DNA of 64,000 bases, taken from contig CAITGV010000005.1 in the NCBI GenBank assembly GCA_903892035.1, positions 41,011 to 105,010 on the forward strand, read 5' to 3'. This DNA comes from an uncultured bacterium. GTDB taxonomy: Bacteria; Patescibacteriota; Minisyncoccia; Phycocordibacterales; UBA9973. Shown piece after piece: positions 751-61,429 of the stretch. The translations under genes and the position numbers were made by a program. The notes beneath the pieces were generated by a model that worked only from the letters and a program-made list of their open reading frames with translations, was not told the DNA's origin and searched no databases. Within the stretch, counting starts at the first letter, position 1. Every line of letters begins with the position of its first letter.

Positions 751-1245
751 TTAAAATTTAAATCCTTTAGCCAACTTGAATGTCTTGAAATTGTCTTTGA
801 TTTTTATTTCTTGCACATATTTTATAAAATCTTTCGGCAATGGAGATGGGCCTACCCAGACACTTCGTTGAATCATAACGAAGTGAAATTTGCGAAGCTC
901 GCGTCTAAACCAGTTTCTTTCCGTTTTTTTGTCTTCCGGTATATCATATAATATCAATAGATCCTTCGGGTCATTTTCTGTTTTCTCGGGTGTAAATTTC
1001 TTAAGAATAGTTCGCGTCTTTTCATTTAAGAATAATTCTCCTTTGTAGGTAATGACATAGTTACCATACATTTCCTTTATATACCCTTTGCTTTTTAAAT
1101 CTGAACACCTGTTAGCCAAAGTCTGATATTTATAATGCTTGAAATCTGGCAATCCCAAAAATCCCACGCGCATACCTTTGTATCGCAAAACCTGCTTATT
1201 TTTACTTTCACTTAAGTATTTCAAAACCTTCCTTTCAATACTCAT
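751..1245 (-). CDS. PaaX-like small regulator: N-terminal winged-helix DNA-binding domain plus C-terminal Cas2/VapD-like fold (truncated, no PaaX_C domain)
   Basis: 164-aa ORF. The N-terminal ~90 aa (YQTLANRCSDLKSKGYIKEMYGNYVITYKGELFL) resembles the PaaX wHTH. The segment DLLILYDIPEDKKTERNWFRRELRKFHFVMIQRSVWVG matches the Cas2-like beta-alpha-beta core (YDI..D, QRSVW ~ Cas2 QYSVF; PaaX middle domain WLLLLSEGLDK..L.KQLIWQGFG). It is flanked by perfect 36-bp inverted repeats. Confidence 0.6.
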   Translation of the reverse strand: MSIERKVLKYLSESKNKQVLRYKGMRVGFLGLPDFKHYKYQTLANRCSDLKSKGYIKEMYGNYVITYKGELFLNEKTRTILKKFTPEKTENDPKDLLILYDIPEDKKTERNWFRRELRKFHFVMIQRSVWVGPSPLPKDFIKYVQEIKIKDNFKTFKLAKGFKF

Positions 1246-32983: not shown

Positions 32984-33871
32984 TTATTGTTCCGCTAGGT
33001 CTTGCCTAGCGATGAATAACTCTCCTTTGAAATTTGCTGATTTTTCGAAAGAATGATCTTTTCGAATTAATACATATTCAAAATTATATAAAGATAAAAT
33101 TTCAGCCGGTACAAAAAATAAACAAGTTGCAAGGCAATCTGCAAGAAGTGCTGTATCAGCAATTACCCACACAGCTACAATGTCACCATGCGATGATAAT
33201 GTTTTTGGATTTATGATATGAGTAAATTCTCCCCAAGCTCTTCGATTACCAGCAGACCCACAAATACTACCACTGCCCAAAGTATAAACTCCGACAACTT
33301 GACTTGTATTTTCAGGATTCTCAAGTCCTACGCGAATAGTATTTTTACTTTTTTGTAAAATATCTCCACCTGCATCAATACAAAATTCTTTTATCTCATT
33401 TTGCATCAATATTTCACCAACAATATCTATCAAATAACCCTTCCCGCCAGCACCGAGGTCAAGCATTGCTGGTACTTTCATGTTTATTTTCGAATCTCTA
33501 TATGTAAAAACATCCTCCCACTTTGGAGGAATTTTTAATTCATTTTTTTGTTTTAAAGTATATGTAGCATCATATCCAGCATCAGAAAGTAAATCACCGA
33601 CTAGTGGAGTAAAAAGTCCGTTAGTTTTTTTATACAAATCATAATAAAGAGAGAAAATTTTTTCTGCATCAGATGGAAGAGAAAATTCTCCAATTTCTTT
33701 TGACATTTTTGTCACCAATGAATCAGCACGAAAACGAGAATATGAAATATCAAAATCCTCAATGCGACTCATTATTTTTTCTAAAAGCTTTTCTTCAGAA
33801 ATTCCTAAAATTGGCTCGTAAATTTCTAATTGCCACCTTGTACCAATTGCTTCAAAATTAAACTGTGACAT
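32984..33871 (-). CDS. apbE: FAD:protein FMN transferase (ApbE family)
   Basis: 295 aa ApbE/Ftp fold (..LDLGAGGKGY.., ..IDAGGDI.., ..SGSICGSAGNRRAWG..). Confidence 0.75.
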   Translation of the reverse strand: MSQFNFEAIGTRWQLEIYEPILGISEEKLLEKIMSRIEDFDISYSRFRADSLVTKMSKEIGEFSLPSDAEKIFSLYYDLYKKTNGLFTPLVGDLLSDAGYDATYTLKQKNELKIPPKWEDVFTYRDSKINMKVPAMLDLGAGGKGYLIDIVGEILMQNEIKEFCIDAGGDILQKSKNTIRVGLENPENTSQVVGVYTLGSGSICGSAGNRRAWGEFTHIINPKTLSSHGDIVAVWVIADTALLADCLATCLFFVPAEILSLYNFEYVLIRKDHSFEKSANFKGELFIARQDLAEQ

Positions 33872-40460: not shown

Positions 40461-41144
40461 ATGCAAACAATGGATAAAATTAAAACACTACCAAATGGAT
40501 CTAAATTAAATAAAAATCTACGCTTACTAATAATTATAAATACCGTAATTACTTTCACCGTTGGTATGTTTGCTCCTTTTTATGCGGTCTTCGTGGCGCA
40601 CATAGGTGGTGGAGCTGCACTTGCAGGAATTTCTTGGGCAGTCTTTTCTATTGTTTCTGGTGTACTTATTCTTGCTCTCTCAAAATGGGAGTTAAAGGTA
40701 AAACGCCGTCATGTTCTTCTCGCCACTGGATACCTGATACGTGCTGTAGTATTTTTAAGCTATGCATTTATGGACAATATCCCCCAACTTCTCATTACAC
40801 AAGTTCTTTGGGGTGTGGCTTCTGCAGTCGGAACTCCAGCATTTGATGCTCTTTACACTTCTCACACTTCTGCTGAATCTGCCATTGTCGAGTGGGGTGA
40901 CTGGGAAGGAATTGCAGCTATCGCGACTGGAGTAGCAGCTCTCGTCGGTGGATTCTTAATTCAAATAATTGGTTTCAAAATTTTATTCCTCTTTATGTCT
41001 GTAATCGCAGCTGGTCTTGGAAGCTATATTTTACGTGAAAGATACCTAATCAAAAAAGCTGAATTAAAAAAAGAAGTTCTTAAAACAGAAAAAGCTCAAA
41101 TAAAAAAAGAGTTGGAAAAAAATCTTCCCTCGAAATCATCTTAA
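40461..41144 (+). CDS. Membrane protein, 6-TM MFS-like half-transporter
   Basis: 227 aa with 6 TM helices and a Lys/Glu-rich C-terminal tail. Confidence 0.45.
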   Translation: MQTMDKIKTLPNGSKLNKNLRLLIIINTVITFTVGMFAPFYAVFVAHIGGGAALAGISWAVFSIVSGVLILALSKWELKVKRRHVLLATGYLIRAVVFLSYAFMDNIPQLLITQVLWGVASAVGTPAFDALYTSHTSAESAIVEWGDWEGIAAIATGVAALVGGFLIQIIGFKILFLFMSVIAAGLGSYILRERYLIKKAELKKEVLKTEKAQIKKELEKNLPSKSS

Positions 41145-41834
41145 ATAATTACCACTTTCAATTTCTGCCACTATAGCCATGTGGTCACTTACACCGTCTA
41201 CTAATTTTACATTTGAAGATTTGTATAAAGGTGTAGTAAAAAGCCCATCCACCATAAACTTTATACCTTTTACTCTATGTAAATTTTGATCGATACTTGT
41301 TTCGTATTCAGATGGAATATTATCAATAAATTTTTTTGAAAAACGAGCAAAAGATTCCTTACCTCGCGGAGCATTCATATCTCCACAAAATATAAATTCA
41401 CCCAGCGACTGTAATTTCTCAATTAGAGAATCTATAACCTCAAGTTGAAGTTCCGTAACTTCCCCTTCCTTTGTCACAGGCGGATGTGCCGTAGTAAATC
41501 GCATCGTCTTTCCATCATCATCTAAAACATCAGCCCACAATAAACTACGACGAACATTTTCATTTTCTTCGTAGTAAGAAATTCCTGTGGAAACTATTTT
41601 CTCAGCAAATATTCCTATCCCCTGCTTCTTGCCTTTAATTTCATCGTAATGAAAATAAGTAACCAGGGTCTGAAATTGAAAAACTCCCTCTATTCCGAGT
41701 TCTCTTTTATATTCTTCAAAATCATCTTCCAAAAGTTCCTGTGCACAAAAAACATCAGGCTTTTCTTTTTTCAAAAAATTTAACACTGTTTCCTTGTGCC
41801 TATTCAATTCTACGTTTAGGGATATCAGTTTCAT
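41136..41834 (-). CDS. Endonuclease/exonuclease/phosphatase (EEP) family protein
   Basis: 232 aa EEP fold (N-terminal ..LISLNVE.., ..FCAQE.., C-terminal ..GDMNA.., ..SDHMAIVAEI). Confidence 0.7.
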   Translation of the reverse strand: MKLISLNVELNRHKETVLNFLKKEKPDVFCAQELLEDDFEEYKRELGIEGVFQFQTLVTYFHYDEIKGKKQGIGIFAEKIVSTGISYYEENENVRRSLLWADVLDDDGKTMRFTTAHPPVTKEGEVTELQLEVIDSLIEKLQSLGEFIFCGDMNAPRGKESFARFSKKFIDNIPSEYETSIDQNLHRVKGIKFMVDGLFTTPLYKSSNVKLVDGVSDHMAIVAEIESGNYLR

Positions 41835-42085
41835 TTTTTATTTTTTATTAATTTTAATTTTTCTTCTCTACTCAGTCTTTTCAGTTCTCCTTCATATTTT
41901 CTTGCTTCACCGTAGGTTTTAAATTTCTTCGAATATTTCAACACTACCGGTCGACGGATTTTGGTATAGTGCGCGCCAGATTTTAAATTATTGTGAGCAT
42001 ATAATCTTTTTTCTAAATCATTTGTACTACCGACATATAGAGTTTTGTCAGCACATTCTAATATATATACAAAATATTTCATCAA
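41831..42085 (-). CDS. GIY-YIG nuclease domain protein (stand-alone, ~84 aa)
   Basis: YFVYILECADKTLYVGSTNDLEKRLYAHNN..G..YTK matches the GIY-(x10)-YIG core with the conserved Arg and Glu. It shares an ATGA overlap with the EEP gene. Confidence 0.75.
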   Translation of the reverse strand: MMKYFVYILECADKTLYVGSTNDLEKRLYAHNNLKSGAHYTKIRRPVVLKYSKKFKTYGEARKYEGELKRLSREEKLKLIKNKK

Positions 42086-42463
42086 TTAAGAAAGTGCTTC
42101 TTCTACTTTTGCTAGCAAGTCTTCAATCTTTATATCAGTTTTAATTATGAATTGAAAGATATTATTCTCCATTGCTTGTTGCAACTTATCCATATCTGAA
42201 AAGTTTGTGAGTACAATAATATGTACATTTTTACCCCACTGGTCTTCACGAATTTTTTTAGCCATTTCAATGCCGTCCATTTTAGGCATTTGCACATCGA
42301 CTAAAATTAGATCTGGGTGCATTGAAAAAGCTTTTTCCAAACCTTCTTCACCGTTATTTGCTCCAAAAACTTCGTAACCGTGAATTGCCAACTTATCAAC
42401 GAGTGCACGTTGGTATGCTTGCTCATCTTCTACAACTAAAATTTTTTTATTTATTTTATTCAT
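42086..42463 (-). CDS. Single-domain response regulator (receiver only, CheY-like)
   Basis: 125 aa with the acidic pocket VVEDE, phospho-acceptor ..LILVDVQMP.. and a conserved Lys region. No output domain. Confidence 0.85.
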   Translation of the reverse strand: MNKINKKILVVEDEQAYQRALVDKLAIHGYEVFGANNGEEGLEKAFSMHPDLILVDVQMPKMDGIEMAKKIREDQWGKNVHIIVLTNFSDMDKLQQAMENNIFQFIIKTDIKIEDLLAKVEEALS

Positions 42464-42471
42464 AAATTTAA

Positions 42472-42861
42472 TTAAAATTTTTCAGCAAGACGCGCATTTA
42501 CTTTATCTACAACATCTTGAATTTTATACTCCGACTTTACTAAATAATCACTTACTCCATTTTTAATATTTTCAATAATAGTTTTAGAATCTGATAAATT
42601 ACTTAAAATAAAAACAGGGACACCCATTCCCCATTTGTCGCGATAAAGCTCAATGAGCATTTCTCTGCCATCCATTTTGGGCATCAATAAATCCAATAAA
42701 ATAATATCTGGATGATTTTTCAACGCAACTTTTAAACCTTCTTCGCCGTTACTTGCTTGAAATACCTTAAAACCTTCTAGCTCAAATTTAGTGACAAGAG
42801 ATTTTCTTTGTACAACTTCATCTTCAACAATTAAAATAGTTTTTTGATCTTTTTTTATCAT
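42472..42861 (-). CDS. Single-domain response regulator (receiver only)
   Basis: 129 aa (IVEDE, ..IILLDLLMP..). No output domain. Confidence 0.85.
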   Translation of the reverse strand: MIKKDQKTILIVEDEVVQRKSLVTKFELEGFKVFQASNGEEGLKVALKNHPDIILLDLLMPKMDGREMLIELYRDKWGMGVPVFILSNLSDSKTIIENIKNGVSDYLVKSEYKIQDVVDKVNARLAEKF

Positions 42862-42900
42862 ACAATATAATTATACAATACAAATTTAAAGTTACAAAGT

Positions 42901-44811
42901 TTAGCCCAATTGTTTTGTTCCAGCTTTTTTAACCATTCCAGAGAGTGGAAAAGAGCAAGCAAATACAGTATCTTCTCCACTTTTTGAAGAAAACCATATT
43001 TTTCCACCTGAGTTTTCCACAATTTGTTTTACTAAATACAGGCCGAGACCATTTCCGTCTGGATCCTGTTCACTTGCATTGCTTGCTCTAAACAATTTTG
43101 TAAAAATCTTACCTTGATCGTCTATTGGTATCGGCTCACCATTATTTGTGACACTTATCACAACATTATTACTTTTTTTAAATATACTGATACCAATACT
43201 GCCACCGACTTGAGTGTACTTGATTGCATTTGAAATATAATTTTGGAAAATTATTCGCAACAATTTTGGATCTGCAGATATTTCACCTAGATCAGCATCA
43301 TATTTTTTTATTAACTTTTGCTTTCTATTTTTAATTTTTTGATTCATTTCAAGTAATACTTCATTACAAACCTTCTTAAAACTTGTTGGTACCGGTTCGA
43401 CAATAAAAACTCCCATTTCAATTCGAGAAACATTTAAAAGACTATTTATGAGTTCATTCATTCTTTGATTCATACTATACATATCGGCAACTACTTCATG
43501 TTGTTTTTCTGAAATTTTTCCATAGTCCCCCGAGAGCAACATTTCCAAATTCCAATTCAGAGCACCTACTGGAGTTTTTAATTGATGTGAAGCTAGAGAT
43601 ACGAATTCTGTTTTTTCCCTATCTACCTCTTTATCGTGCGTGACATCAAAATTTACACCAATCATATTTAGTGGCTTTTTTTCATAATCTCTTTCAACTA
43701 CTGCATACGCTTTTATATATCGTATTTCTTTATTTTGATGAATCATTCGAAATGTTGTATCGAATACTTTTTTTCCATTTGATGCATCTAGCAACATTTT
43801 TTCAACCTTAGTAACATCTTCTGGATGTAATAATTTTTTCCATAAATCGTAAGTCATATTTTGATCTTTGGAATTAATTCCGTAAATCAAATACATATTC
43901 TCATCCCAAGTCACAGTATTTTTGACTATATCCCAGTCCCAAACTCCAATATTTGCGGATTTAGTGGCAAGCTCCAATCGCTTTGTAACATTTTCAACTT
44001 TTTCTTTTTCTTGCCGAACGTCTTCCAAAACATTTAAAATAGCTTTTTTAGTATTATTTAATTCAACATTTTTATTTTCTGCTTCGTTTTTCAACATTAC
44101 TGCCTCTTTAATTTTTTCTTCCACTTTTTTGTTTACAACTTCATTTTCTTTACTAAGTATGACAAATTGTGAGTATCTAAAAGATAAAAATATTATTAAA
44201 TAGTAAATCAATAATATAAATAATACAGCAAAAATTTCATAAACAGTATGAGTGTGTATTATATTATCAAAATACGTATTTATTATATCAACACCCGCAA
44301 CCGCAAAAATATTTCCATTATTATTTTTTATCGGAGCTAGGAAAGAATAAAAGCGTCCATATTCGTCAGTATATGGACCTATCATATGAGTAGGTTCACC
44401 TTTAAATGCATTGATAAAATCAACTGGCGGCTCTTTGTAAACGACACCTGGTTCACTGTGCCATGCATCATTTATATCTGCAGAGTCTGCATAAAAACGA
44501 ATACTACCATTTTCCATTTTCATAAAATAAAAACCGCGAACTCCGTCCTTGGAATAAATTTTTTCAAGTTTTATAAGCTGTTCACGCATGCGAATATAAT
44601 CTGAAGATACAATATCGCCTGCTTCTGTTGGTAGTTTTTCTAAACTTACTGGATCAACAGAAGATATTGCCACATATACAGCACGGCTAAAATTGTCTAC
44701 AGTATTATTTCGAAATTTAGTATGTTCAAAATATATAAAAGTAAAACACATTACCAATATTGCAAGTGTTCCAAATATTATGAATCTTTTATATTGTATT
44801 AATAATTTCAT
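42901..44811 (-). CDS. Sensor histidine kinase with a periplasmic sensor domain, PAS domain, HisKA and HATPase_c
   Basis: 636 aa with two TM helices flanking a ~180-aa extracytoplasmic domain, then a coiled-coil, a PAS domain, an H-box (FVSLASHQLKTP), N/G boxes and a C-terminal ATPase. Confidence 0.85.
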   Translation of the reverse strand: MKLLIQYKRFIIFGTLAILVMCFTFIYFEHTKFRNNTVDNFSRAVYVAISSVDPVSLEKLPTEAGDIVSSDYIRMREQLIKLEKIYSKDGVRGFYFMKMENGSIRFYADSADINDAWHSEPGVVYKEPPVDFINAFKGEPTHMIGPYTDEYGRFYSFLAPIKNNNGNIFAVAGVDIINTYFDNIIHTHTVYEIFAVLFILLIYYLIIFLSFRYSQFVILSKENEVVNKKVEEKIKEAVMLKNEAENKNVELNNTKKAILNVLEDVRQEKEKVENVTKRLELATKSANIGVWDWDIVKNTVTWDENMYLIYGINSKDQNMTYDLWKKLLHPEDVTKVEKMLLDASNGKKVFDTTFRMIHQNKEIRYIKAYAVVERDYEKKPLNMIGVNFDVTHDKEVDREKTEFVSLASHQLKTPVGALNWNLEMLLSGDYGKISEKQHEVVADMYSMNQRMNELINSLLNVSRIEMGVFIVEPVPTSFKKVCNEVLLEMNQKIKNRKQKLIKKYDADLGEISADPKLLRIIFQNYISNAIKYTQVGGSIGISIFKKSNNVVISVTNNGEPIPIDDQGKIFTKLFRASNASEQDPDGNGLGLYLVKQIVENSGGKIWFSSKSGEDTVFACSFPLSGMVKKAGTKQLG

Positions 44812-46394
44812 TATTCGTTATTCTTTAATTTCGCAATTTCTTCTTTTAATTCTATCATCTTCAATTCACGGTCAATCATATATTTATTGATTTGACGTAA
44901 TTCAGTATTTATTTCTTCCATTTTTCTACTATTCTCAATTTCAACTGTAATATCTCGCCCAACGGCAAAAAGGCTACTTCCTTGGGGTGAAACGTTCCAC
45001 TGGAGCCACACGTATGAACCACTTTTTGTTCGAAAACGATTTTTGAAATCTACAGTCTTTTCACCTTGAGACAACTTACCTATTATTTTTTCAGTTTCAG
45101 CAATATCATCTGGATGAATAAAACTCAAAAAAGTATTTTTTAGTAATTCTTCTTCGGTAAAACCTAAAATGCTCATAAATTTAGGATTTATTCTTTTAAA
45201 ATATTTATCTGTATTTGCAACACACATCAAGTCTATAGCAGTATTGAAAAATGCATCTAGCTCAGCAGATTTCTCCATTATTTCTTTTTCAATAATTTTC
45301 AAATTACTAATATCCTCTTCTGTACCTATGTAACCCCGAATATTTTTCTCTTTATCCAAGATTGGTGCAATATGTGCAATTGCATAATATATTTCTCCAT
45401 TTTTTCTCCTATTTATAATTTCTCCTTGAAAAGCTTCTCCTGATAATTTTTGCTTCCAAAAATTTACATAAAAATTTTGATTCATCATACCCCCCCAAAG
45501 ACGTGGCGTATTTCCTAAAATTTCTTGATGTGAATAACCTGTAATATTTTCTGTGGCTTTATTTGCAAAAAGTACAACTCCATTTGCATCTGTAATCACA
45601 GTATGGTTTGTTGAATTTTGAATTGCTTCAGCAAAAATATTGTTTTCTTTCAATTGTCTTTTTACTTCCTCTGGAGTCAAATTATTTTTGGGAGTAGGAT
45701 AAAAGTTCTCAAAAAACATATTCGATTTTGAAATACCACCTATTTCAAGCTCGGTATATACAAAATCTACCATTCCCTGTGGTCCTGCAATCCACCATTC
45801 TCCCGAAGAAAATTCGGATGAAATTTTACTTACATTATTCCATGAAAAATTTTCATAAGATATTACGTAATCAAAAAATTTGTTTTTCTTTTTTAATAAC
45901 TTTAATTCTTCAATAAAAGGAGTTGATTCAGGACTATTATTTAAATAAACTAAAAAACATTTTGTTTTAAATTTTCTCTTTGATATTGTTTCTACTAATT
46001 GCAAAAATGCAGCTATACCGATACCCCCTGCAATCATCACAATATGATTTGGTAAGTGGTCCTCGGATACTATAAAGCTGTCGCCAAAAGGCCCGTGGAC
46101 TATTACGTCGTCACCAGCTTCTAGGGCAAATAAACTTTGTTTGTATCCACTTTCGCTTATTCTAGCGATTATTTCTATTGTATTGTCGGCACTAATATTA
46201 TTAAAAATAGAAAATGCTCTTCTGTTTCCGTGAGCATCTTCTATTTTCATATTTGGAATTTCTATCCAAATATATTGCCATGGCAAGAATGAAAAATTTT
46301 CATTTACCTTAATAGTAATTTTTTTTACTCCCTTTGCCAATATTTCAAAATTCAATACTTTTGCATTGAACTTTTTTTGCATAAAGTTCTCCAT
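44811..46394 (-). CDS. Ferredoxin-reductase-like FAD/NAD(P)-binding domain fused to tandem PAS domains and a C-terminal coiled-coil (no kinase or output domain)
   Basis: The N-terminal ~235 aa carry an FNR-type FAD-binding motif (RAFSIF, i.e. RxYS) and a nucleotide-binding motif (MIAGGIGIAAF). Two PAS domains follow (..ITDANGVVLFANKATENITGYS.., ..IDLMCVANTDKYFKRINPKFMSILGFT..). The stop overlaps the HK start. Confidence 0.65.
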   Translation of the reverse strand: MENFMQKKFNAKVLNFEILAKGVKKITIKVNENFSFLPWQYIWIEIPNMKIEDAHGNRRAFSIFNNISADNTIEIIARISESGYKQSLFALEAGDDVIVHGPFGDSFIVSEDHLPNHIVMIAGGIGIAAFLQLVETISKRKFKTKCFLVYLNNSPESTPFIEELKLLKKKNKFFDYVISYENFSWNNVSKISSEFSSGEWWIAGPQGMVDFVYTELEIGGISKSNMFFENFYPTPKNNLTPEEVKRQLKENNIFAEAIQNSTNHTVITDANGVVLFANKATENITGYSHQEILGNTPRLWGGMMNQNFYVNFWKQKLSGEAFQGEIINRRKNGEIYYAIAHIAPILDKEKNIRGYIGTEEDISNLKIIEKEIMEKSAELDAFFNTAIDLMCVANTDKYFKRINPKFMSILGFTEEELLKNTFLSFIHPDDIAETEKIIGKLSQGEKTVDFKNRFRTKSGSYVWLQWNVSPQGSSLFAVGRDITVEIENSRKMEEINTELRQINKYMIDRELKMIELKEEIAKLKNNE

Positions 46395-46426
46395 TTACGA
46401 TATATATTATATCATAAATTTTTTTG

Positions 46427-46497
46427 CTGGGAGACAGGGAATCGAACCCCGATTAAAGGCTTCAAAGGCCTCTGTCCTACCGTTAGACGATCTCCCA
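46427..46497 (-). tRNA. tRNA-Gln (anticodon TTG)
   Basis: Manually folded cloverleaf: U1:A72 acceptor (UGGGAGA/UCUCCCA, typical of bacterial tRNA-Gln), D-arm GUCU-AACGGUA-GGAC, anticodon stem GAGGC/GCCUU with loop CUUUGAA, T-arm CGGGG-UUCGAUU-CCCUG, discriminator G. Confidence 0.8.
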
Positions 46498-59896: not shown

Positions 59897-61429
59897 ATGA
59901 TATATAATAGGCAAATGAAAATAAAAAACGAAAAAGAACGCATCGGTAATTTTATTAAAACTATACGTGAGGGGCAAGGTTTTACTCAAGAAGAGTTTGC
60001 AAAAGCTCTATCTACCTCGCAAAGTGCTGTGGCTCGCATGGAGAGCGGTAAACAAAATTTTACAATGGAGCAACTCGAGAAAATAAGTACAGTATTGGGC
60101 AGAAAAATTCTTTCCCTTTCTTCTTCAATAGACTTTGAAATAAATGGTGGCAAAAAACTATCGGGTAGCATCGATACAAATTATTCAAAAAATGGCGCGA
60201 TCAATATGCTCTGCGCTACTCTCATAAACCAAGGCAAAACAGTGCTACACGGTATTCCTCACATCGAGGAAGTACACCGCTATATAGAAATAATGCAAAG
60301 TCTCGGAGTTTCCGTAAAATGGATTGGTGATGATTCACTTGAAATTATAGTTCCAAATAAATTAAATTTTGAAAGTATAGACAAAGATACGGTGGCAAGA
60401 ACTCGTTCATTTACATTTGTCGGAGCTCTTATTCACTATGCAAAATCATTCACTTACCCAAACTCTGGTGGTTGCAAAATGGGAGAGCGCACTATAGCTG
60501 CGCATAAATACGGCTTGGAAAAACTTGGTGTAAAAATTTTAACCAAAAAAAATACATATGAAATTTCTTATAAAAAATTAAAGCCAAATACTATCCCCCT
60601 CTATGAATCCAGCGACACAGGAGCTATCAATATGCTCATTGCAGCTGCAAGAATTCCGGGAATTACAACAATAAAATTTGCTCCGCCAAATTACCAGGTG
60701 CAAGACGTATGTTTTCTTTTAGAAAAAATGGGAATAAAAATTGAAGGTATTGGTACTACTACTCTCGTAGTGCACGGAGTCGAACAAATAAATAAAAATA
60801 TTGAACATTATAATAGTGAAGACCCTATTGAATCAATGTTTTTCATTACTGCAGGAATTGTCACAAAATCAAAAATAACAATAAATCGCTGCCCCATAGA
60901 ATTCCTCGAACTCGAAATGGAAAAACTTTTACATATGGGTCAAAAATACACAAAATCAAAACCCTATTTTTCAAAAAACGGACGAACGACTTTAGTCGAC
61001 ATTACGATACTCCCTTCAAATCTAAAAGCATTGCCGGACAAAATTCACACACAACCTTTCCCTGGAATTCAAAATGACAGTTTGCCATTTTTCGTGTCTA
61101 TCGCTGTTCAAGCAAAAGGCACCACGCTCATTCACGATTGGACTTGGGAAAATAGAGCGATATATTTTACTGAGTTAAATAAATTGGGTGCAAAAATAAC
61201 CCTTATGGATCCACATAGAGCCATCATAGAAGGCCCATCAAAGCTTCGTGGAGCGCAAATAGTCTGCCCACCTGCACTCCGCCCTTCTGCAACAATATTT
61301 ATCAGTATGCTTGCCGCCGAGGGAGTCTCGACTCTTCGAAATATTTACTCAATTGCACGTGGCTATGAAGATATTGCCGAAAGATTAAATTCACTCGGTG
61401 CTGATATAAAAATTTTGAAAGGCATTTAA
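59897..61429 (+). CDS. murA: UDP-N-acetylglucosamine 1-carboxyvinyltransferase with an N-terminal XRE-family HTH domain (fusion)
   Basis: Residues ~7-75 form an HTH_XRE domain (IGNFIKTIREGQGFTQEEFAKALSTSQSAVARMESGKQNFTMEQLEKISTVLG). The remaining ~420 aa are MurA/EPT fold, with the active-site Cys loop at YPNSGGCKMGERTI. The start may be at 59915 instead. Confidence 0.8.
   Translation: MIYNRQMKIKNEKERIGNFIKTIREGQGFTQEEFAKALSTSQSAVARMESGKQNFTMEQLEKISTVLGRKILSLSSSIDFEINGGKKLSGSIDTNYSKNGAINMLCATLINQGKTVLHGIPHIEEVHRYIEIMQSLGVSVKWIGDDSLEIIVPNKLNFESIDKDTVARTRSFTFVGALIHYAKSFTYPNSGGCKMGERTIAAHKYGLEKLGVKILTKKNTYEISYKKLKPNTIPLYESSDTGAINMLIAAARIPGITTIKFAPPNYQVQDVCFLLEKMGIKIEGIGTTTLVVHGVEQINKNIEHYNSEDPIESMFFITAGIVTKSKITINRCPIEFLELEMEKLLHMGQKYTKSKPYFSKNGRTTLVDITILPSNLKALPDKIHTQPFPGIQNDSLPFFVSIAVQAKGTTLIHDWTWENRAIYFTELNKLGAKITLMDPHRAIIEGPSKLRGAQIVCPPALRPSATIFISMLAAEGVSTLRNIYSIARGYEDIAERLNSLGADIKILKGI

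What the first reader, a model, noticed from the sequence alone, without database searches (positions are those of the whole stretch)
41136..46394. Six-gene minus-strand operon: FNR-like flavin/NAD(P) domain::PAS-PAS protein, PAS histidine kinase, two receiver-only regulators, GIY-YIG nuclease and EEP nuclease
Genes overlap or abut (44811 stop/start overlap; 41831-41834 ATGA overlap; 9-40-bp gaps otherwise), so co-transcription is likely. The first product couples a ferredoxin-NADP-reductase-type FAD/NAD-binding module (RAFSIF and GGIGIAAF motifs) to two PAS domains with no output domain. This is an unusual sensor architecture that could report cellular redox or NAD(P)H state to the downstream kinase. 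The kinase is a separate membrane protein with its own periplasmic domain. Neither response regulator has a DNA-binding domain. The only other operon members are two small nucleases, so the output of the phosphorelay may be post-translational control of nuclease activity rather than transcription. This is inference from domain content and gene order. I know of no described system with this composition.
Basis: inference. Interest (0 to 1): 0.6.

Follow-up and report, generated by a model that had tools for sequence, protein, structure and literature searches.

The report
Reductase-fused flavin PAS redox sensor system
The six genes exist as described, but only four form a conserved unit: a redox-sensing signalling system common in ultra-small Patescibacteria, whose sensor joins an NAD(P)H-reductase-type module to a NifL-like flavin PAS domain, while the two "nuclease" genes are unrelated neighbours.

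Summary
All six minus-strand ORFs, their overlaps and their domains are confirmed. The nuclease-output idea fails. None of 83 related loci carries a GIY-YIG or EEP gene near the sensor, and EEP homologues sit in unrelated housekeeping contexts.

The FNR-like::PAS protein is not a one-off. Its N-terminal module defines a large Patescibacteria family: 882 cluster representatives at E<=1e-10. In 49 of 79 loci the module is fused directly to PAS-HisKA-HATPase. The window holds a split version. The cytoplasmic half of its membrane kinase is 45-56% identical to the C-terminal half of the fused proteins.

The FNR cofactor motifs are nearly invariant. PAS-A carries the published FAD-PAS markers, the Fα Trp (W313) and Asn (N328), and matches MmoS and NifL best.

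Best reading: NAD(P)H reduces the PAS flavin through the fused reductase and oxidants re-oxidise it. The flavin state sets kinase activity towards two CheY-like receivers.

Kinase-less sensors end in a conserved helix motif (…MIDRELKMIELK). Their partner kinases carry a matching KKAxLNxLED helix. These look like docking elements.

In about a quarter of relatives the cassette lies beside type IV pilus genes, which suggests a possible output.

No cofactor binding, electron transfer or protein contact has been shown.

The parts
44811..46394 (-). Kinase-less cytoplasmic sensor protein: FNR-like reductase module, PAS-A, PAS-B and a C-terminal helix. 527 aa, or 523 aa if translation starts at the SD-preceded ATG at 46382.
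   Evidence: ORF. Pfam and NCBIfam domains. AF2 model with pLDDT 92.3 and pTM 0.78. 255 homologues, all named ones Patescibacteria.
45690..46394 (-). FNR-type flavin/NAD(P)H module (residues 1-235). Motifs: R58-R59-A-F61-S62, G101-P-F-G104, A122-G-G-I-G-I-A-A-F130, A203-G-P205, F227-F-E-N-F231-Y-P233.
   Evidence: PDB sequence hits: BenC reductase 1krh 9e-9, T4moF 4wqm, flavohaemoprotein, PyrK, PDR. Foldseek hits: GcoB, BenC, NqrF, SpNOX DH, b5 reductase. Motifs are invariant or at least 90% conserved in 73 homologues. 882 representatives at E<=1e-10, with the module N-terminal in all of the top 150.
45300..45647 (-). PAS-A (residues about 250-365), NifL/MmoS-type and predicted to bind FAD. 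Family signature: G294-N-T-P-R-L-W-G-G-M-M304, Y309, W313, N328-R-R-K-N-G-E, E359.
   Evidence: Best PDB sequence hits: MmoS 3ewk 3e-19, NifL 2gj3 3e-13, then LOV domains and Aer. NifL FAD contacts T41, Y83, W87 and N102 (PMC8063818) align to T268, Y309, W313 and N328; the last three are invariant. The Fα Trp and the Asn are the published FAD-PAS determinants (PMC10468136).
44949..45269 (-). PAS-B (residues about 376-482), PAS_3 type. No cofactor prediction.
   Evidence: Pfam PAS_3 402-471. AF2 secondary structure.
44844..44888 (-). C-terminal helix motif N503-KYMIDRELKMIELK517, proposed to dock the sensor onto the kinase. It sits inside the long terminal helix 483-526.
   Evidence: Present 8-27 residues from the C-terminus in 42 of 59 kinase-less homologues and in 0 of 61 fused homologues. 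It also ends other kinase-less sensor proteins next to related cassettes. It occurs once in the window.
42901..44811 (-). Membrane histidine kinase (636 aa): TM1 about 10-28, extracytoplasmic loop about 29-188 with no recognisable family, TM2 about 189-211, helix, PAS_3 300-387, HisKA 400-467 (H409 in SHQLKTP), HATPase_c 514-623.
   Evidence: Pfam. Hydropathy. Residues 262-636 are 45-56% identical to the C-terminal half of fused FNR-PAS kinases. G1 box reads NNGEPIP instead of DxGxG, a trait shared by a subclade. No Pfam hit for the N-terminal 285 aa.
44020..44049 (-). Kinase helix motif K255-KAILNVLED264, just N-terminal of the kinase PAS. Proposed counterpart of the sensor's C-terminal motif.
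   Evidence: Found in the partner kinases of 12 split systems, counting L060 in a looser form, and in only 2 fused kinases. It occurs once in the window.
42472..42861 (-). Receiver-only response regulator 1 (129 aa). Acidic pocket D14, phospho-acceptor D57, S88, K109.
   Evidence: Pfam Response_reg 1.3e-22. Alignment with CheY. One to four receiver-only genes follow the kinase in 41 of 65 related loci.
42086..42463 (-). Receiver-only response regulator 2 (125 aa). D13, phospho-acceptor D56, T86, K108. 42% identical to regulator 1.
   Evidence: Pfam Response_reg 3.4e-25. Alignment.
41831..42085 (-). Small stand-alone GIY-YIG protein of the UPF0213/YhbQ type (83 aa from the ATG at 42082). A neighbour, not part of the conserved system.
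   Evidence: Pfam GIY-YIG 2.5e-17. PDB 1ywl 2.7e-13 and 1zg2. Absent from all 83 related loci.
41136..41834 (-). EEP-fold phosphoesterase (232 aa) with intact catalytic residues (N7, E33, D152, N154, D217, H218). Substrate unknown. A neighbour, not part of the conserved system.
   Evidence: Pfam Exo_endo_phos. 391 homologues, named ones Paceibacterota or Patescibacteria; the top 120 listed are 51-60% identical, in unrelated contexts. AF2 pLDDT 92.2. Nearest folds: uncharacterised bacterial EEPs, TDP2, nocturnin. A profile search of the related loci found none.

Best explanation
The functional unit is four genes, not six. It is a two-component system of a family widespread in Patescibacteria.

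Its input is a cytoplasmic protein. An FNR-type NAD(P)H:flavin oxidoreductase module is joined by a fixed 30-residue linker to a NifL/MmoS-type PAS domain that most likely holds FAD. A second PAS domain and a long C-terminal helix follow.

Proposed mechanism:
- NAD(P)H reduces the flavin of the FNR module.
- That flavin passes electrons to the PAS-A flavin.
- Oxidants, most plausibly O2, re-oxidise the PAS-A flavin.
- The PAS flavin's redox state therefore compares reducing power with oxidant load. This would work in a cell that has no respiratory chain to do the job.
- The redox state is transmitted through the PAS dimer and helices to a HisKA kinase.

In most relatives the sensor and kinase are one polypeptide. 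Here they are split and translationally coupled (TAATG). The kinase half has gained two membrane helices and an extracytoplasmic loop, so it can integrate an outside signal as well. The sensor's C-terminal helix (NKYMIDRELKMIELK) probably docks on the kinase helix KKAILNVLED.

The kinase phosphorylates two CheY-like receiver-only regulators, which act by binding other proteins. The best lead for a target is the type IV pilus machinery. The GIY-YIG and EEP genes are housekeeping-type passengers that share the transcription direction.

Shown here: gene anatomy, domain identity, folds, motif conservation, fusion versus split distribution, motif co-occurrence and non-conservation of the nucleases.

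Inferred: both flavins, the electron path, the oxidant, the sign of regulation, the docking contact and the pilus target.
For: Anatomy.

Family and fusion:
- 255 homologues; many are FNR-PAS-(PAS)-HisKA-HATPase proteins of 735-920 aa.
- 80 genome loci. Most record titles name Patescibacteria lineages; 15 carry Gammaproteobacteria, Pseudomonadales or Bacteroidia labels that look like labelling errors and were not verified.
- Among 79 non-redundant loci: 49 fused, 12 split with a kinase gene downstream, 4 with FNR as a separate ORF.
- The window kinase, residues 262-636, is 45-56% identical to the C-terminal half of fused proteins.
- Receiver-only genes follow in 41 of 65 loci.

FNR module:
- Fold and sequence hits.
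- RRAFS, GPFG, AGGxG, GP and FExF/Y-Y-P motifs are at least 90% conserved.
- The terminal aromatic aligns with the C-terminal Phe of BenC reductase.

PAS-A:
- MmoS, NifL, LOV and Aer are the best PDB hits.
- W313, N328 and Y309 are invariant and align to NifL W87, N102 and Y83.
- Trp plus Asn is the published FAD-PAS signature.

Linker: 30 residues in 58 of 73 sequences.

Docking motifs.

Pilus link:
- A PilB-type ATPase lies within 9 kb in 19 of 79 loci.
- Prepilin-motif genes lie beside the cassette in about 20 loci, in at least three different arrangements.
- Pfam confirmation on examples.

Nucleases excluded.
Against: - No experiment or ligand-aware model supports either flavin. I could not read model coordinates, so the distance between the two predicted flavin sites is unknown.
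- FAD_binding_6 scores below Pfam's cutoff.
- The flavin-stacking Tyr of RxYS is Phe, as in the flavin-substrate enzyme Fre (my recollection). The Cys of CGP is Ala/Ser/Thr. The Pro of GGxGxxP is Ala in the window protein.
- The two N5-proximal residues of MmoS (H132, R195) and NifL E70 are replaced by P297 and E359.
- Ten loci have the same PAS-A type on a kinase with no FNR module, so PAS-A can work without it.
- The window kinase has an unusual G1 box (NNGEPIP), which could weaken ATP binding.
- The window holds no pilus genes.
- The pilus enrichment rests on an assumed genomic background, and the loci are phylogenetically related.
- Docking is inferred from motif co-occurrence only.
Confidence: 0.6

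Rival explanations
1. All six genes form one functional system, and the phosphorylated receiver-only regulators control the GIY-YIG and EEP enzymes post-translationally.
For: The genes are co-directional and abut or overlap. No terminator-like site lies in the gaps. No other output gene is present in the cluster.
Against: GIY-YIG and EEP are absent from all 83 related loci in permissive single-sequence and profile searches. The 61%-identical relative lacks them. EEP homologues (55-59% identity in the three loci examined) sit in unrelated housekeeping neighbourhoods. GIY-YIG is the ubiquitous UPF0213 type. The EEP substrate is unknown.
Confidence: 0.04
2. The FNR-like module is a nucleotide-binding sensor only. 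It binds NAD(P)H/NAD(P)+, with or without its own flavin, and changes conformation, in the manner of Rex. It transfers no electrons to PAS-A. PAS-A may bind a flavin that senses something else, or no cofactor at all.
For: The motifs depart from the catalytic consensus: Phe for Tyr, no Cys in CGP, Ala for Pro in the window protein. FAD_binding_6 is below cutoff. PAS-A of the same type occurs on kinases without the FNR module in 10 loci. The fixed-length linker fits mechanical coupling as well as electron transfer.
Against: Both the flavin-side and the nucleotide-side motifs are kept almost invariant across 73 diverse members. That is more than a pure NAD(P)H binder would need. PAS-A keeps the FAD-PAS determinants. 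In phthalate dioxygenase reductase, a class relative of the best sequence match (BenC, whose iron-sulfur domain is N-terminal), the domain fused C-terminal to the module is the electron acceptor (established knowledge; both hit).
Confidence: 0.2
3. The 527-aa protein is a PAS-regulated enzyme. The FNR module is the output, for example a regulated flavin, quinone or iron reductase or an NAD(P)H oxidase, and its adjacency to the kinase is secondary.
For: The protein has no kinase or other output domain. Stand-alone FNR-like proteins of about 230 aa from the same subfamily exist. The SpNOX dehydrogenase domain is among the fold hits.
Against: In 49 of 79 loci the same module sits N-terminal to PAS-HisKA-HATPase, which is the input position. 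The window kinase is the detached C-terminal half of such proteins. Kinase-less forms carry a specific C-terminal motif that is paired with a kinase motif.
Confidence: 0.08

Closest known systems
NifL PAS1 (Azotobacter vinelandii) and MmoS PAS-A (Methylococcus capsulatus): FAD-PAS redox sensors
   Same: PAS-A is most similar in sequence to these two (3e-13 and 3e-19). The tandem PAS part matches them in fold. The FAD contacts T41, Y83, W87 and N102 of NifL are conserved as T268, Y309, W313 and N328. MmoS is also a tandem-PAS histidine kinase input.
   Different: NifL and MmoS depend on separate cellular reductants. Here a reductase-type module is fused in cis. NifL E70 and MmoS H132/R195 near flavin N5 are replaced by P297 and an invariant E359. 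NifL acts on NifA, not on receivers. FAD binding is untested here.
FNR-superfamily reductase components of oxygenases (benzoate dioxygenase reductase BenC, T4moF, MmoC, phthalate dioxygenase reductase) and Fre/LuxG flavin reductases
   Same: The same two-domain fold and motif set. As in these reductases, a further redox-type domain is fused to the module. It is C-terminal only in phthalate dioxygenase reductase; in BenC, T4moF and MmoC it is N-terminal.
   Different: The fused partner here is a PAS domain, not a [2Fe-2S] ferredoxin. There is no oxygenase partner. The protein is an input to a kinase. Scores are far below every NCBIfam equivalog cutoff, so it is not an orthologue of any of them.
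Brucella LOV-PAS-HK and other flavin-PAS histidine kinases
   Same: Best overall fold match for the PAS-PAS-helix part (6ph4 and 6pps, E about 1e-17). The layout is the same: flavin PAS, second PAS, helix, HisKA kinase.
   Different: There is no photoactive Cys (P297 at that position), so this is not a light sensor. It has an added reductase module. In the window the kinase is a separate membrane protein.
Accessory-sensor plus kinase pairs such as the regulatory hydrogenase HoxBC with HoxJ, or LuxP with LuxQ (from established knowledge)
   Same: An enzyme-like or ligand-binding protein without output domains controls a separate histidine kinase by direct contact.
   Different: Here the two proteins are demonstrably a fission of a single-chain kinase, and they carry paired helix motifs. 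The contact itself is not demonstrated.
Single-domain response regulators controlling type IV pili (PilG/PilH) or other machines (CheY, DivK, CpdR)
   Same: Receiver-only proteins with intact phospho-acceptor pockets. Relatives' cassettes lie beside pilin and PilB genes in about a quarter of loci.
   Different: The kinase is HisKA type, not CheA type. There are no chemoreceptor or CheW genes. NCBIfam scores for DivK and CpdR models are far below cutoff. There are no pilus genes in this window.

Membership tests
FNR superfamily (FAD_binding_6 + NAD_binding_1 oxidoreductase module) | Two-domain fold: six-stranded beta-barrel flavin domain followed by a Rossmann-type nucleotide domain | tested here: met
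   AF2 model pLDDT 92.3. Foldseek hits to GcoB, BenC, NqrF, SpNOX DH, flavohaemoglobin and b5 reductase, E 1e-13 to 1e-15, about 240 aligned columns.
FNR superfamily (FAD_binding_6 + NAD_binding_1 oxidoreductase module) | Flavin-binding motifs RxY(S/T) and GPxG | tested here: met
   R59-A-F61-S62 (Phe replaces Tyr in 70 of 73) and G101-P-F-G104, invariant or at least 90% conserved.
FNR superfamily (FAD_binding_6 + NAD_binding_1 oxidoreductase module) | Nucleotide-binding motifs GGxGxxP and CGP | tested here: inconclusive
   The window has A-G-G-I-G-I-A-A-F. The Pro position is P in 33, A in 29, V in 3 and S in 2 of the 73 aligned sequences. The Gly-Pro of CGP is kept, but the Cys is Ser, Ala or Thr.
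FNR superfamily (FAD_binding_6 + NAD_binding_1 oxidoreductase module) | Curated Pfam score cut-offs for both domains | tested here: inconclusive
   NAD_binding_1 scores 28.5 against a cutoff of 22 (met). FAD_binding_6 scores 17.9 against 21.1 (not met).
FNR superfamily (FAD_binding_6 + NAD_binding_1 oxidoreductase module) | Bound flavin and NAD(P)H-dependent electron transfer | not testable with these tools
   Needs purified protein.
FAD-binding PAS domains (NifL/MmoS/Aer clade; clusters 4, 9, 14 of PMC10468136) | Conserved Trp on the Fα helix, the primary FAD determinant | tested here: met
   W313 aligns to NifL W87 and MmoS W149 and is invariant in 73 sequences.
FAD-binding PAS domains (NifL/MmoS/Aer clade; clusters 4, 9, 14 of PMC10468136) | Asn that hydrogen-bonds the isoalloxazine (NifL N102, MmoS N164, Aer N85) | tested here: met
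   N328 is invariant.
FAD-binding PAS domains (NifL/MmoS/Aer clade; clusters 4, 9, 14 of PMC10468136) | N5-proximal residues (NifL E70; MmoS/Aer His and Arg) | tested here: not met
   P297 and E359 occupy these positions. Both are conserved within this family.
FAD-binding PAS domains (NifL/MmoS/Aer clade; clusters 4, 9, 14 of PMC10468136) | FAD actually bound | not testable with these tools
   Needs spectroscopy or a ligand-aware model.
LOV blue-light sensors | Photoactive Cys in the GxNCRFLQ motif | tested here: not met
   The aligned motif is G-N-T-P297-R-L-W-G, with Pro in 72 of 73 sequences.
Two-component system (HisKA kinase with receiver proteins) | H-box His, N box, and G1/G2 ATP-lid boxes in the kinase | tested here: inconclusive
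   H409 in SHQLKTP, N box QNYISNAIKY and G2 GNGLGL are present. G1 reads NNGEPIP instead of DxGxG, a variant shared by a subclade that includes other partner kinases.
Two-component system (HisKA kinase with receiver proteins) | Receiver acidic pocket, phospho-acceptor Asp, Thr/Ser and Lys | tested here: met
   REC1 has D14, D57, S88 and K109. REC2 has D13, D56, T86 and K108, by alignment with CheY.
   None of 83 loci has a hit. Best E-values were 0.1 and 1.2 with phmmer --max and 0.29 with an EEP profile. EEP homologues lie in unrelated contexts.
UPF0213/YhbQ stand-alone GIY-YIG proteins | Single GIY-YIG domain of about 80-100 aa, similar to solved UPF0213 members | tested here: met
   Pfam GIY-YIG 63.4 bits. 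1ywl 2.7e-13 and 1zg2 3.8e-12 over residues 1-80.
Exonuclease III / AP endonuclease | Score above the curated equivalog cutoff; nuclease-type nearest structural relatives | tested here: not met
   TIGR00633 scores 30.4 against 99 and TIGR00195 scores 30.1 against 182. The nearest folds are uncharacterised bacterial EEPs, TDP2, nocturnin and a mannosyl-6-phosphatase. Only the EEP superfamily fold and its catalytic residues are met.

The most novel reading that the evidence does not exclude
Patescibacteria lack respiratory chains. They may have evolved a self-contained redox comparator: an NAD(P)H-fed reductase wired in cis to a FAD-PAS sensor, so that the PAS flavin reports the balance between reducing power and O2 or other oxidants.

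The comparator would exist in two formats. One is fused to a kinase. The other is a detachable plug-in sensor that docks through a dedicated C-terminal helix (…M-x-G/D-RELKM-x-ELK) onto a KKAxLNxLED helix of a membrane kinase. The same socket would also accept other kinase-less membrane sensors.

The output, through CheY-like receivers, would be control of type IV pili, and hence of host attachment or DNA uptake.
Probability: 0.25. Interest if true: 0.75.

Novelty: new variant of a known kind. Interest (0 to 1): 0.55.

Why it matters
Patescibacteria make up a large share of bacterial diversity. They are mostly uncultured, have tiny genomes with few regulators, and depend on host cells. How they sense oxygen or their own energy state is essentially unknown.

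A conserved sensor family found in most of their major lineages would be a concrete, testable candidate for that function. It is built from a reductase module and a NifL-like flavin PAS domain.

It would also speak to an old question for NifL-type sensors, namely what reduces the PAS flavin, by showing a case where the reductase is fused in cis.

The paired helix motifs of split sensors and kinases suggest a modular way of plugging several sensors into one kinase.

For annotation, the result is a caution. Tight co-directional packing in these small genomes does not by itself define a functional operon.

Tried and rejected
- Nuclease output: rejected after phmmer (--max, E<=10), a GIY-YIG motif scan and an EEP profile search found nothing in 83 loci, and after three EEP neighbourhoods proved unrelated.
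- LOV photoreceptor reading of PAS-A: rejected because there is no Cys.
- Heme PAS reading: considered because of weak DosP hits. Set aside because the flavin-PAS hits are far stronger and there is no Fα His.
- Pseudokinase reading of the NNGEPIP G1 box: not adopted because the variant is conserved in a subclade whose domains are otherwise intact. It stays open.
- Identity of the kinase's extracytoplasmic loop: Pfam found nothing. The homologue search with residues 1-262 returned no hit at all, although the full kinase is in the collection. Only one related 269-aa protein (L003) matched locally.
- afdb50 fold search: library unavailable.
- Literature: eight full-text searches for the FNR-PAS architecture, CPR two-component systems and CPR redox sensing found no description of this family.
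- Pilus genes in the window: none found after Pfam annotation of 50 neighbouring ORFs.
- Rfam: only three tRNAs.
- Promoter and terminator scans: at chance level.

Full report
**1. Observation**

The window is a low-GC stretch (about 29-41% GC). It looks like an ordinary Patescibacteria chromosome.

Genes identified by Pfam:
- mraZ, mraW, penicillin-binding proteins, murB
- carAB, pyrB
- dnaX, topA, dprA, relA/spoT, parB

The exact sensor protein is on a 128-kb metagenome scaffold.

Junctions:
- 1-nt TAATG overlap at 44811.
- 39-nt, 8-nt and 0-3-nt gaps.
- 4-nt ATGA overlap at 41834-41831.

Pfam and NCBIfam confirm every domain call. The kinase has two hydrophobic segments around a loop of about 160 aa.

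A tRNA-Gln gene ends 31 nt upstream of the first ORF. Promoter-like and terminator-like matches in the region are at chance level. None of the terminator-like sites lies in an intergenic gap. Co-transcription is therefore plausible but unproven.

**2. What is conserved and what is not**

A homologue search with the first protein gave 255 hits. Every hit that carries a name is from Patescibacteria. Many are 735-920-aa proteins in which the same FNR-PAS module continues into HisKA and HATPase_c.

A scan of one genome per species found 80 loci across most major Patescibacteria lineages. I labelled domains in these and three further loci with the window's own domains as queries.

Among 79 non-redundant loci:
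- 49 have the module fused to a kinase.
- 12 have a kinase-less FNR-PAS protein followed by a kinase gene, often with overlapping stop and start codons.
- 4 have the FNR module as a separate ORF ahead of a PAS-A kinase.
- 10 have the PAS-A kinase without a detectable FNR module.
- 4 show no kinase. These are mostly at contig ends.

Of the 65 loci with an FNR-PAS protein, 41 have one to four receiver-only genes downstream.

The cytoplasmic half of the window's membrane kinase (residues 262-636) is 45-56% identical over its whole length to the C-terminal half of the fused proteins. The window pair is therefore a fission form of a single-chain sensor kinase. This is strong evidence that the two proteins work together.

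No GIY-YIG or EEP gene was found in any of the 83 loci:
- Permissive phmmer gave best E-values of 0.1 and 1.2.
- A GIY-YIG motif scan and an EEP profile search found nothing; best E-value 0.29.
- The closest relatives (58-61% identity) end the cassette after the receiver gene or genes.

The EEP protein belongs to a well-conserved family (top hits 51-60% identical; named members Paceibacterota or Patescibacteria). Its members lie among unrelated housekeeping genes, with no two-component or GIY-YIG neighbours.

The GIY-YIG protein is the ubiquitous small UPF0213/YhbQ type.

The EEP model is confident. Its nearest structural relatives are uncharacterised bacterial EEPs, TDP2, nocturnin and a sugar phosphatase. 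Its substrate is unknown, and it is far below the exonuclease III equivalog cutoffs.

That result holds for the two "nucleases" and fails for the other four genes.

**3. The sensor**

The AlphaFold2 model, built on 73 homologues, is confident (pLDDT 92.3, pTM 0.78).

Residues 1-235 match FNR-superfamily reductases in sequence:
- BenC reductase
- T4moF
- flavohaemoprotein
- PyrK
- phthalate dioxygenase reductase

They also match in fold: GcoB, BenC, NqrF, the SpNOX dehydrogenase domain and b5 reductase.

These motifs are invariant or at least 90% conserved across the family:
- R58-R-A-F-S62
- G101-P-F-G104
- A-G-G-x-G
- G204-P
- F-E-x-(F/Y)-Y-P233

Departures from the consensus:
- Phe replaces the flavin-stacking Tyr.
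- There is no Cys in the CGP motif.
- Pro and Ala alternate at the end of GGxGxxP.

The aromatic residue that ends BenC reductase aligns with F231. Here the chain runs straight on into PAS-A. The linker is exactly 30 residues in 58 of 73 sequences.

PAS-A (about 250-365) is most similar to the FAD-binding PAS domains of MmoS (3e-19) and NifL (3e-13). LOV domains and Aer follow.

I checked my mapping of NifL numbering against the residues listed in PMC8063818:

| NifL FAD contact | Window residue | Conservation in family |
|---|---|---|
| T41 | T268 | at least 90% |
| A45 | G272 | at least 90% |
| Y83 | Y309 | invariant |
| W87 | W313 | invariant |
| N102 | N328 | invariant |

PMC10468136 names the Fα Trp as the primary determinant of FAD binding in this PAS clade, with the Asn as a secondary one. 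Both are met.

The positions that sit over flavin N5 in NifL (E70) and in MmoS/Aer (His and Arg) are P297 and an invariant E359 here. The LOV-type Arg (R298) is invariant. There is no LOV Cys. PAS-A is therefore a distinct branch of the flavin-PAS clade.

No solved structure covers both halves. The best TM-score normalised to the query is 0.38.

A search with the FNR module alone against 1.84 billion cluster representatives gave 882 hits at E<=1e-10. The module was N-terminal in all of the top 150. Most hits are 400-950 aa long. A minority are stand-alone proteins of about 230 aa.

**4. How the split sensor may couple to its kinase**

While comparing neighbours I noticed that the window sensor ends in N503-KYMIDRELKMIELK517. 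The same motif ends every kinase-less FNR-PAS protein in the loci.

Among the 120 best homologues, 42 of 59 proteins of 600 aa or less have it 8-27 residues from the C-terminus. None of the 61 longer, fused proteins has it.

The same motif ends other kinase-less sensor proteins beside these cassettes:
- a 691-aa PorA/CHASE protein in L001
- small membrane proteins in L003, L009, L040, L047, L059 and L073

The partner kinases of 12 split systems, and the window kinase at residues 255-264, carry KKA(M/I/V)LN(I/L/V)LED just before their PAS domain. L060 has it in a looser form. Only two fused kinases have it.

I read these as complementary docking helices that let detachable sensors plug into a kinase. 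This reading rests on co-occurrence only.

**5. Output**

Both receivers have intact phospho-acceptor pockets and no output domain. Such proteins normally act by binding other proteins (established knowledge).

The window offers no local target. In relatives, however, the cassette is often next to type IV pilus genes:
- A PilB-type ATPase lies within 9 kb in 19 of 79 loci.
- Prepilin-motif genes flank the cassette in about 20 loci.
- At least three different arrangements occur.
- Pfam confirms N_methyl pilins and a T2SSE/MshEN ATPase in examples.

I assume one to three PilB genes per genome of about 1 Mb. This is my estimate and was not measured. On that assumption, a random 18-kb window would contain PilB about 2-6% of the time, against 24% observed.

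This is a lead, not a result.

**6. Mechanism and confidence**

Most likely (overall about 0.6), the four-gene core is a redox-sensing or NAD(P)H-sensing two-component system and the two downstream genes are passengers.

Within that reading:
- I give about 0.35 to the specific electron relay: NAD(P)H to FNR flavin to PAS-A FAD, re-oxidised by O2.
- I give about 0.2 to a purely allosteric NAD(P)H sensor.

The unusual NNGEPIP G1 box of the kinase is conserved in a subclade. I treat it as a variant rather than decay, but ATP binding needs testing.

**7. Comparison and novelty**

The parts are known kinds: the FNR module, the FAD-PAS domain, the HisKA kinase and the CheY-like receivers.

Not described in anything I could find:
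- the cis fusion of a reductase module to a NifL-type PAS as a kinase input
- its wide distribution in Patescibacteria
- the paired helix motifs of the split forms

Eight full-text searches turned up nothing. The held library does not include most subscription journals, so absence there is not proof.

I rate it a new variant of a known kind, with interest 0.55. A specialist would find the architecture and its distribution worth an experiment. It follows the usual logic of modular sensors, though, and the most striking claim in the original finding, nuclease control, does not hold.

Noticed in passing
window 44844-44888 (sensor residues 503-517) and 44020-44049 (kinase residues 255-264); L001, L003, L007, L009, L011, L014, L021, L044, L045, L059, L060, L064, L079: Kinase-less sensors end in a conserved helix motif N-K-x-M-x-(G/D)-R-E-L-K-M-x-E-L-K. 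Their partner kinases carry KKAxLNxLED before the PAS domain. The first motif is absent from all 61 fused homologues. It also ends unrelated kinase-less membrane sensors next to the cassettes.
   Followed up: partly
window 43126-43146 (kinase residues 556-562): The ATP-lid G1 box reads NNGEPIP instead of DxGxG. The variant is shared by a subclade of fused kinases (P0045, P0074, P0093 and others) and by the partner kinases of L001, L003, L007, L011 and L044, with the rest of the domain well conserved.
   Followed up: partly
L006, L007, L012, L014, L017, L020, L028, L029, L034, L036, L059, L062, L063, L069, L070, L072, L082 (within 9 kb of the cassette): Type IV pilus genes lie beside the FNR-PAS kinase cassette in many relatives, in several different arrangements. 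They include prepilin-motif proteins and PilB-type ATPases; the one PilB checked with Pfam (L014) carries an MshEN domain. None is present in this window.
   Followed up: partly
window 46382-46394: The annotated start (ATG at 46394) has no ribosome-binding site. The ATG at 46382 is preceded by GGAG and would give 523 aa, the length of the closest homologue P0002.
   Followed up: partly
window 46395-46497 and 42862-42900: A tRNA-Gln gene ends 31 nt upstream of the sensor gene, with a TATAAT in between. The 39-nt kinase-REC1 gap holds TTGTAA-16-TATAAT only 9 nt from the REC1 start codon, which could be an internal promoter. Overall, promoter-like matches are at chance level.
   Followed up: no
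L067, L069, L071, L075, L076, L078, L080-L083; proteins P0248, P0252, P0284, P0289 and others: The same PAS-A type (TPRLWGGMM motif) also occurs on short kinases with no FNR module. Stand-alone FNR-like proteins of about 230 aa from the same subfamily exist as well. I did not check whether these pair up in trans.
   Followed up: no
window 44248-44727 (kinase residues about 29-188); L003 7099-7908: The extracytoplasmic loop of the kinase matches no Pfam family. A homologue search with residues 1-262 returned nothing at all, although the full-length kinase is in that collection. The only relative seen is a 269-aa kinase-less membrane protein in L003.
   Followed up: partly
window 32984-33871; L001 1-908: An ApbE-type flavin transferase gene lies about 7 kb from the cluster. 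In the 61%-identical relative, ApbE and an FMN_bind protein lie about 7 kb upstream of the cassette. A possible link to flavin handling was not examined.
   Followed up: no
window 59897-61429: A MurA/EPSP-synthase-family enzyme (residues 83-497) carries an N-terminal HTH_3 DNA-binding domain (residues 20-71). This is an unusual fusion.
   Followed up: no
window 751-1245: A 164-aa protein has a Cas2-like/PaaX central domain (PF20803, PF09827) but no CRISPR array or other cas genes nearby in the window.
   Followed up: no
window 41136-41834; L084 4122-5738: The nearest solved folds to the EEP protein include nocturnin, an NADP(H) 2'-phosphatase, and TDP2, rather than exonuclease III. In L084 two EEP paralogues lie head to head.
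   Followed up: no
L006, L008, L012, L017, L026, L028-L030, L049, L055-L057, L064, L075, L079: Several record titles call these contigs 'uncultured Gammaproteobacteria', 'Pseudomonadales' or 'Bacteroidia'. Their gene content mirrors loci named as Patescibacteria, and L056 ('Bacteroidia') is nearly the same locus as L054 ('Gracilibacteria'). These are probably labelling errors, not verified.
   Followed up: no
window 41136-41144: The EEP gene's 3' end overlaps by 9 nt the end of a convergent 227-aa ORF. That ORF is a half-size MFS transporter, matching only the first half of the MFS_1 profile.
   Followed up: no
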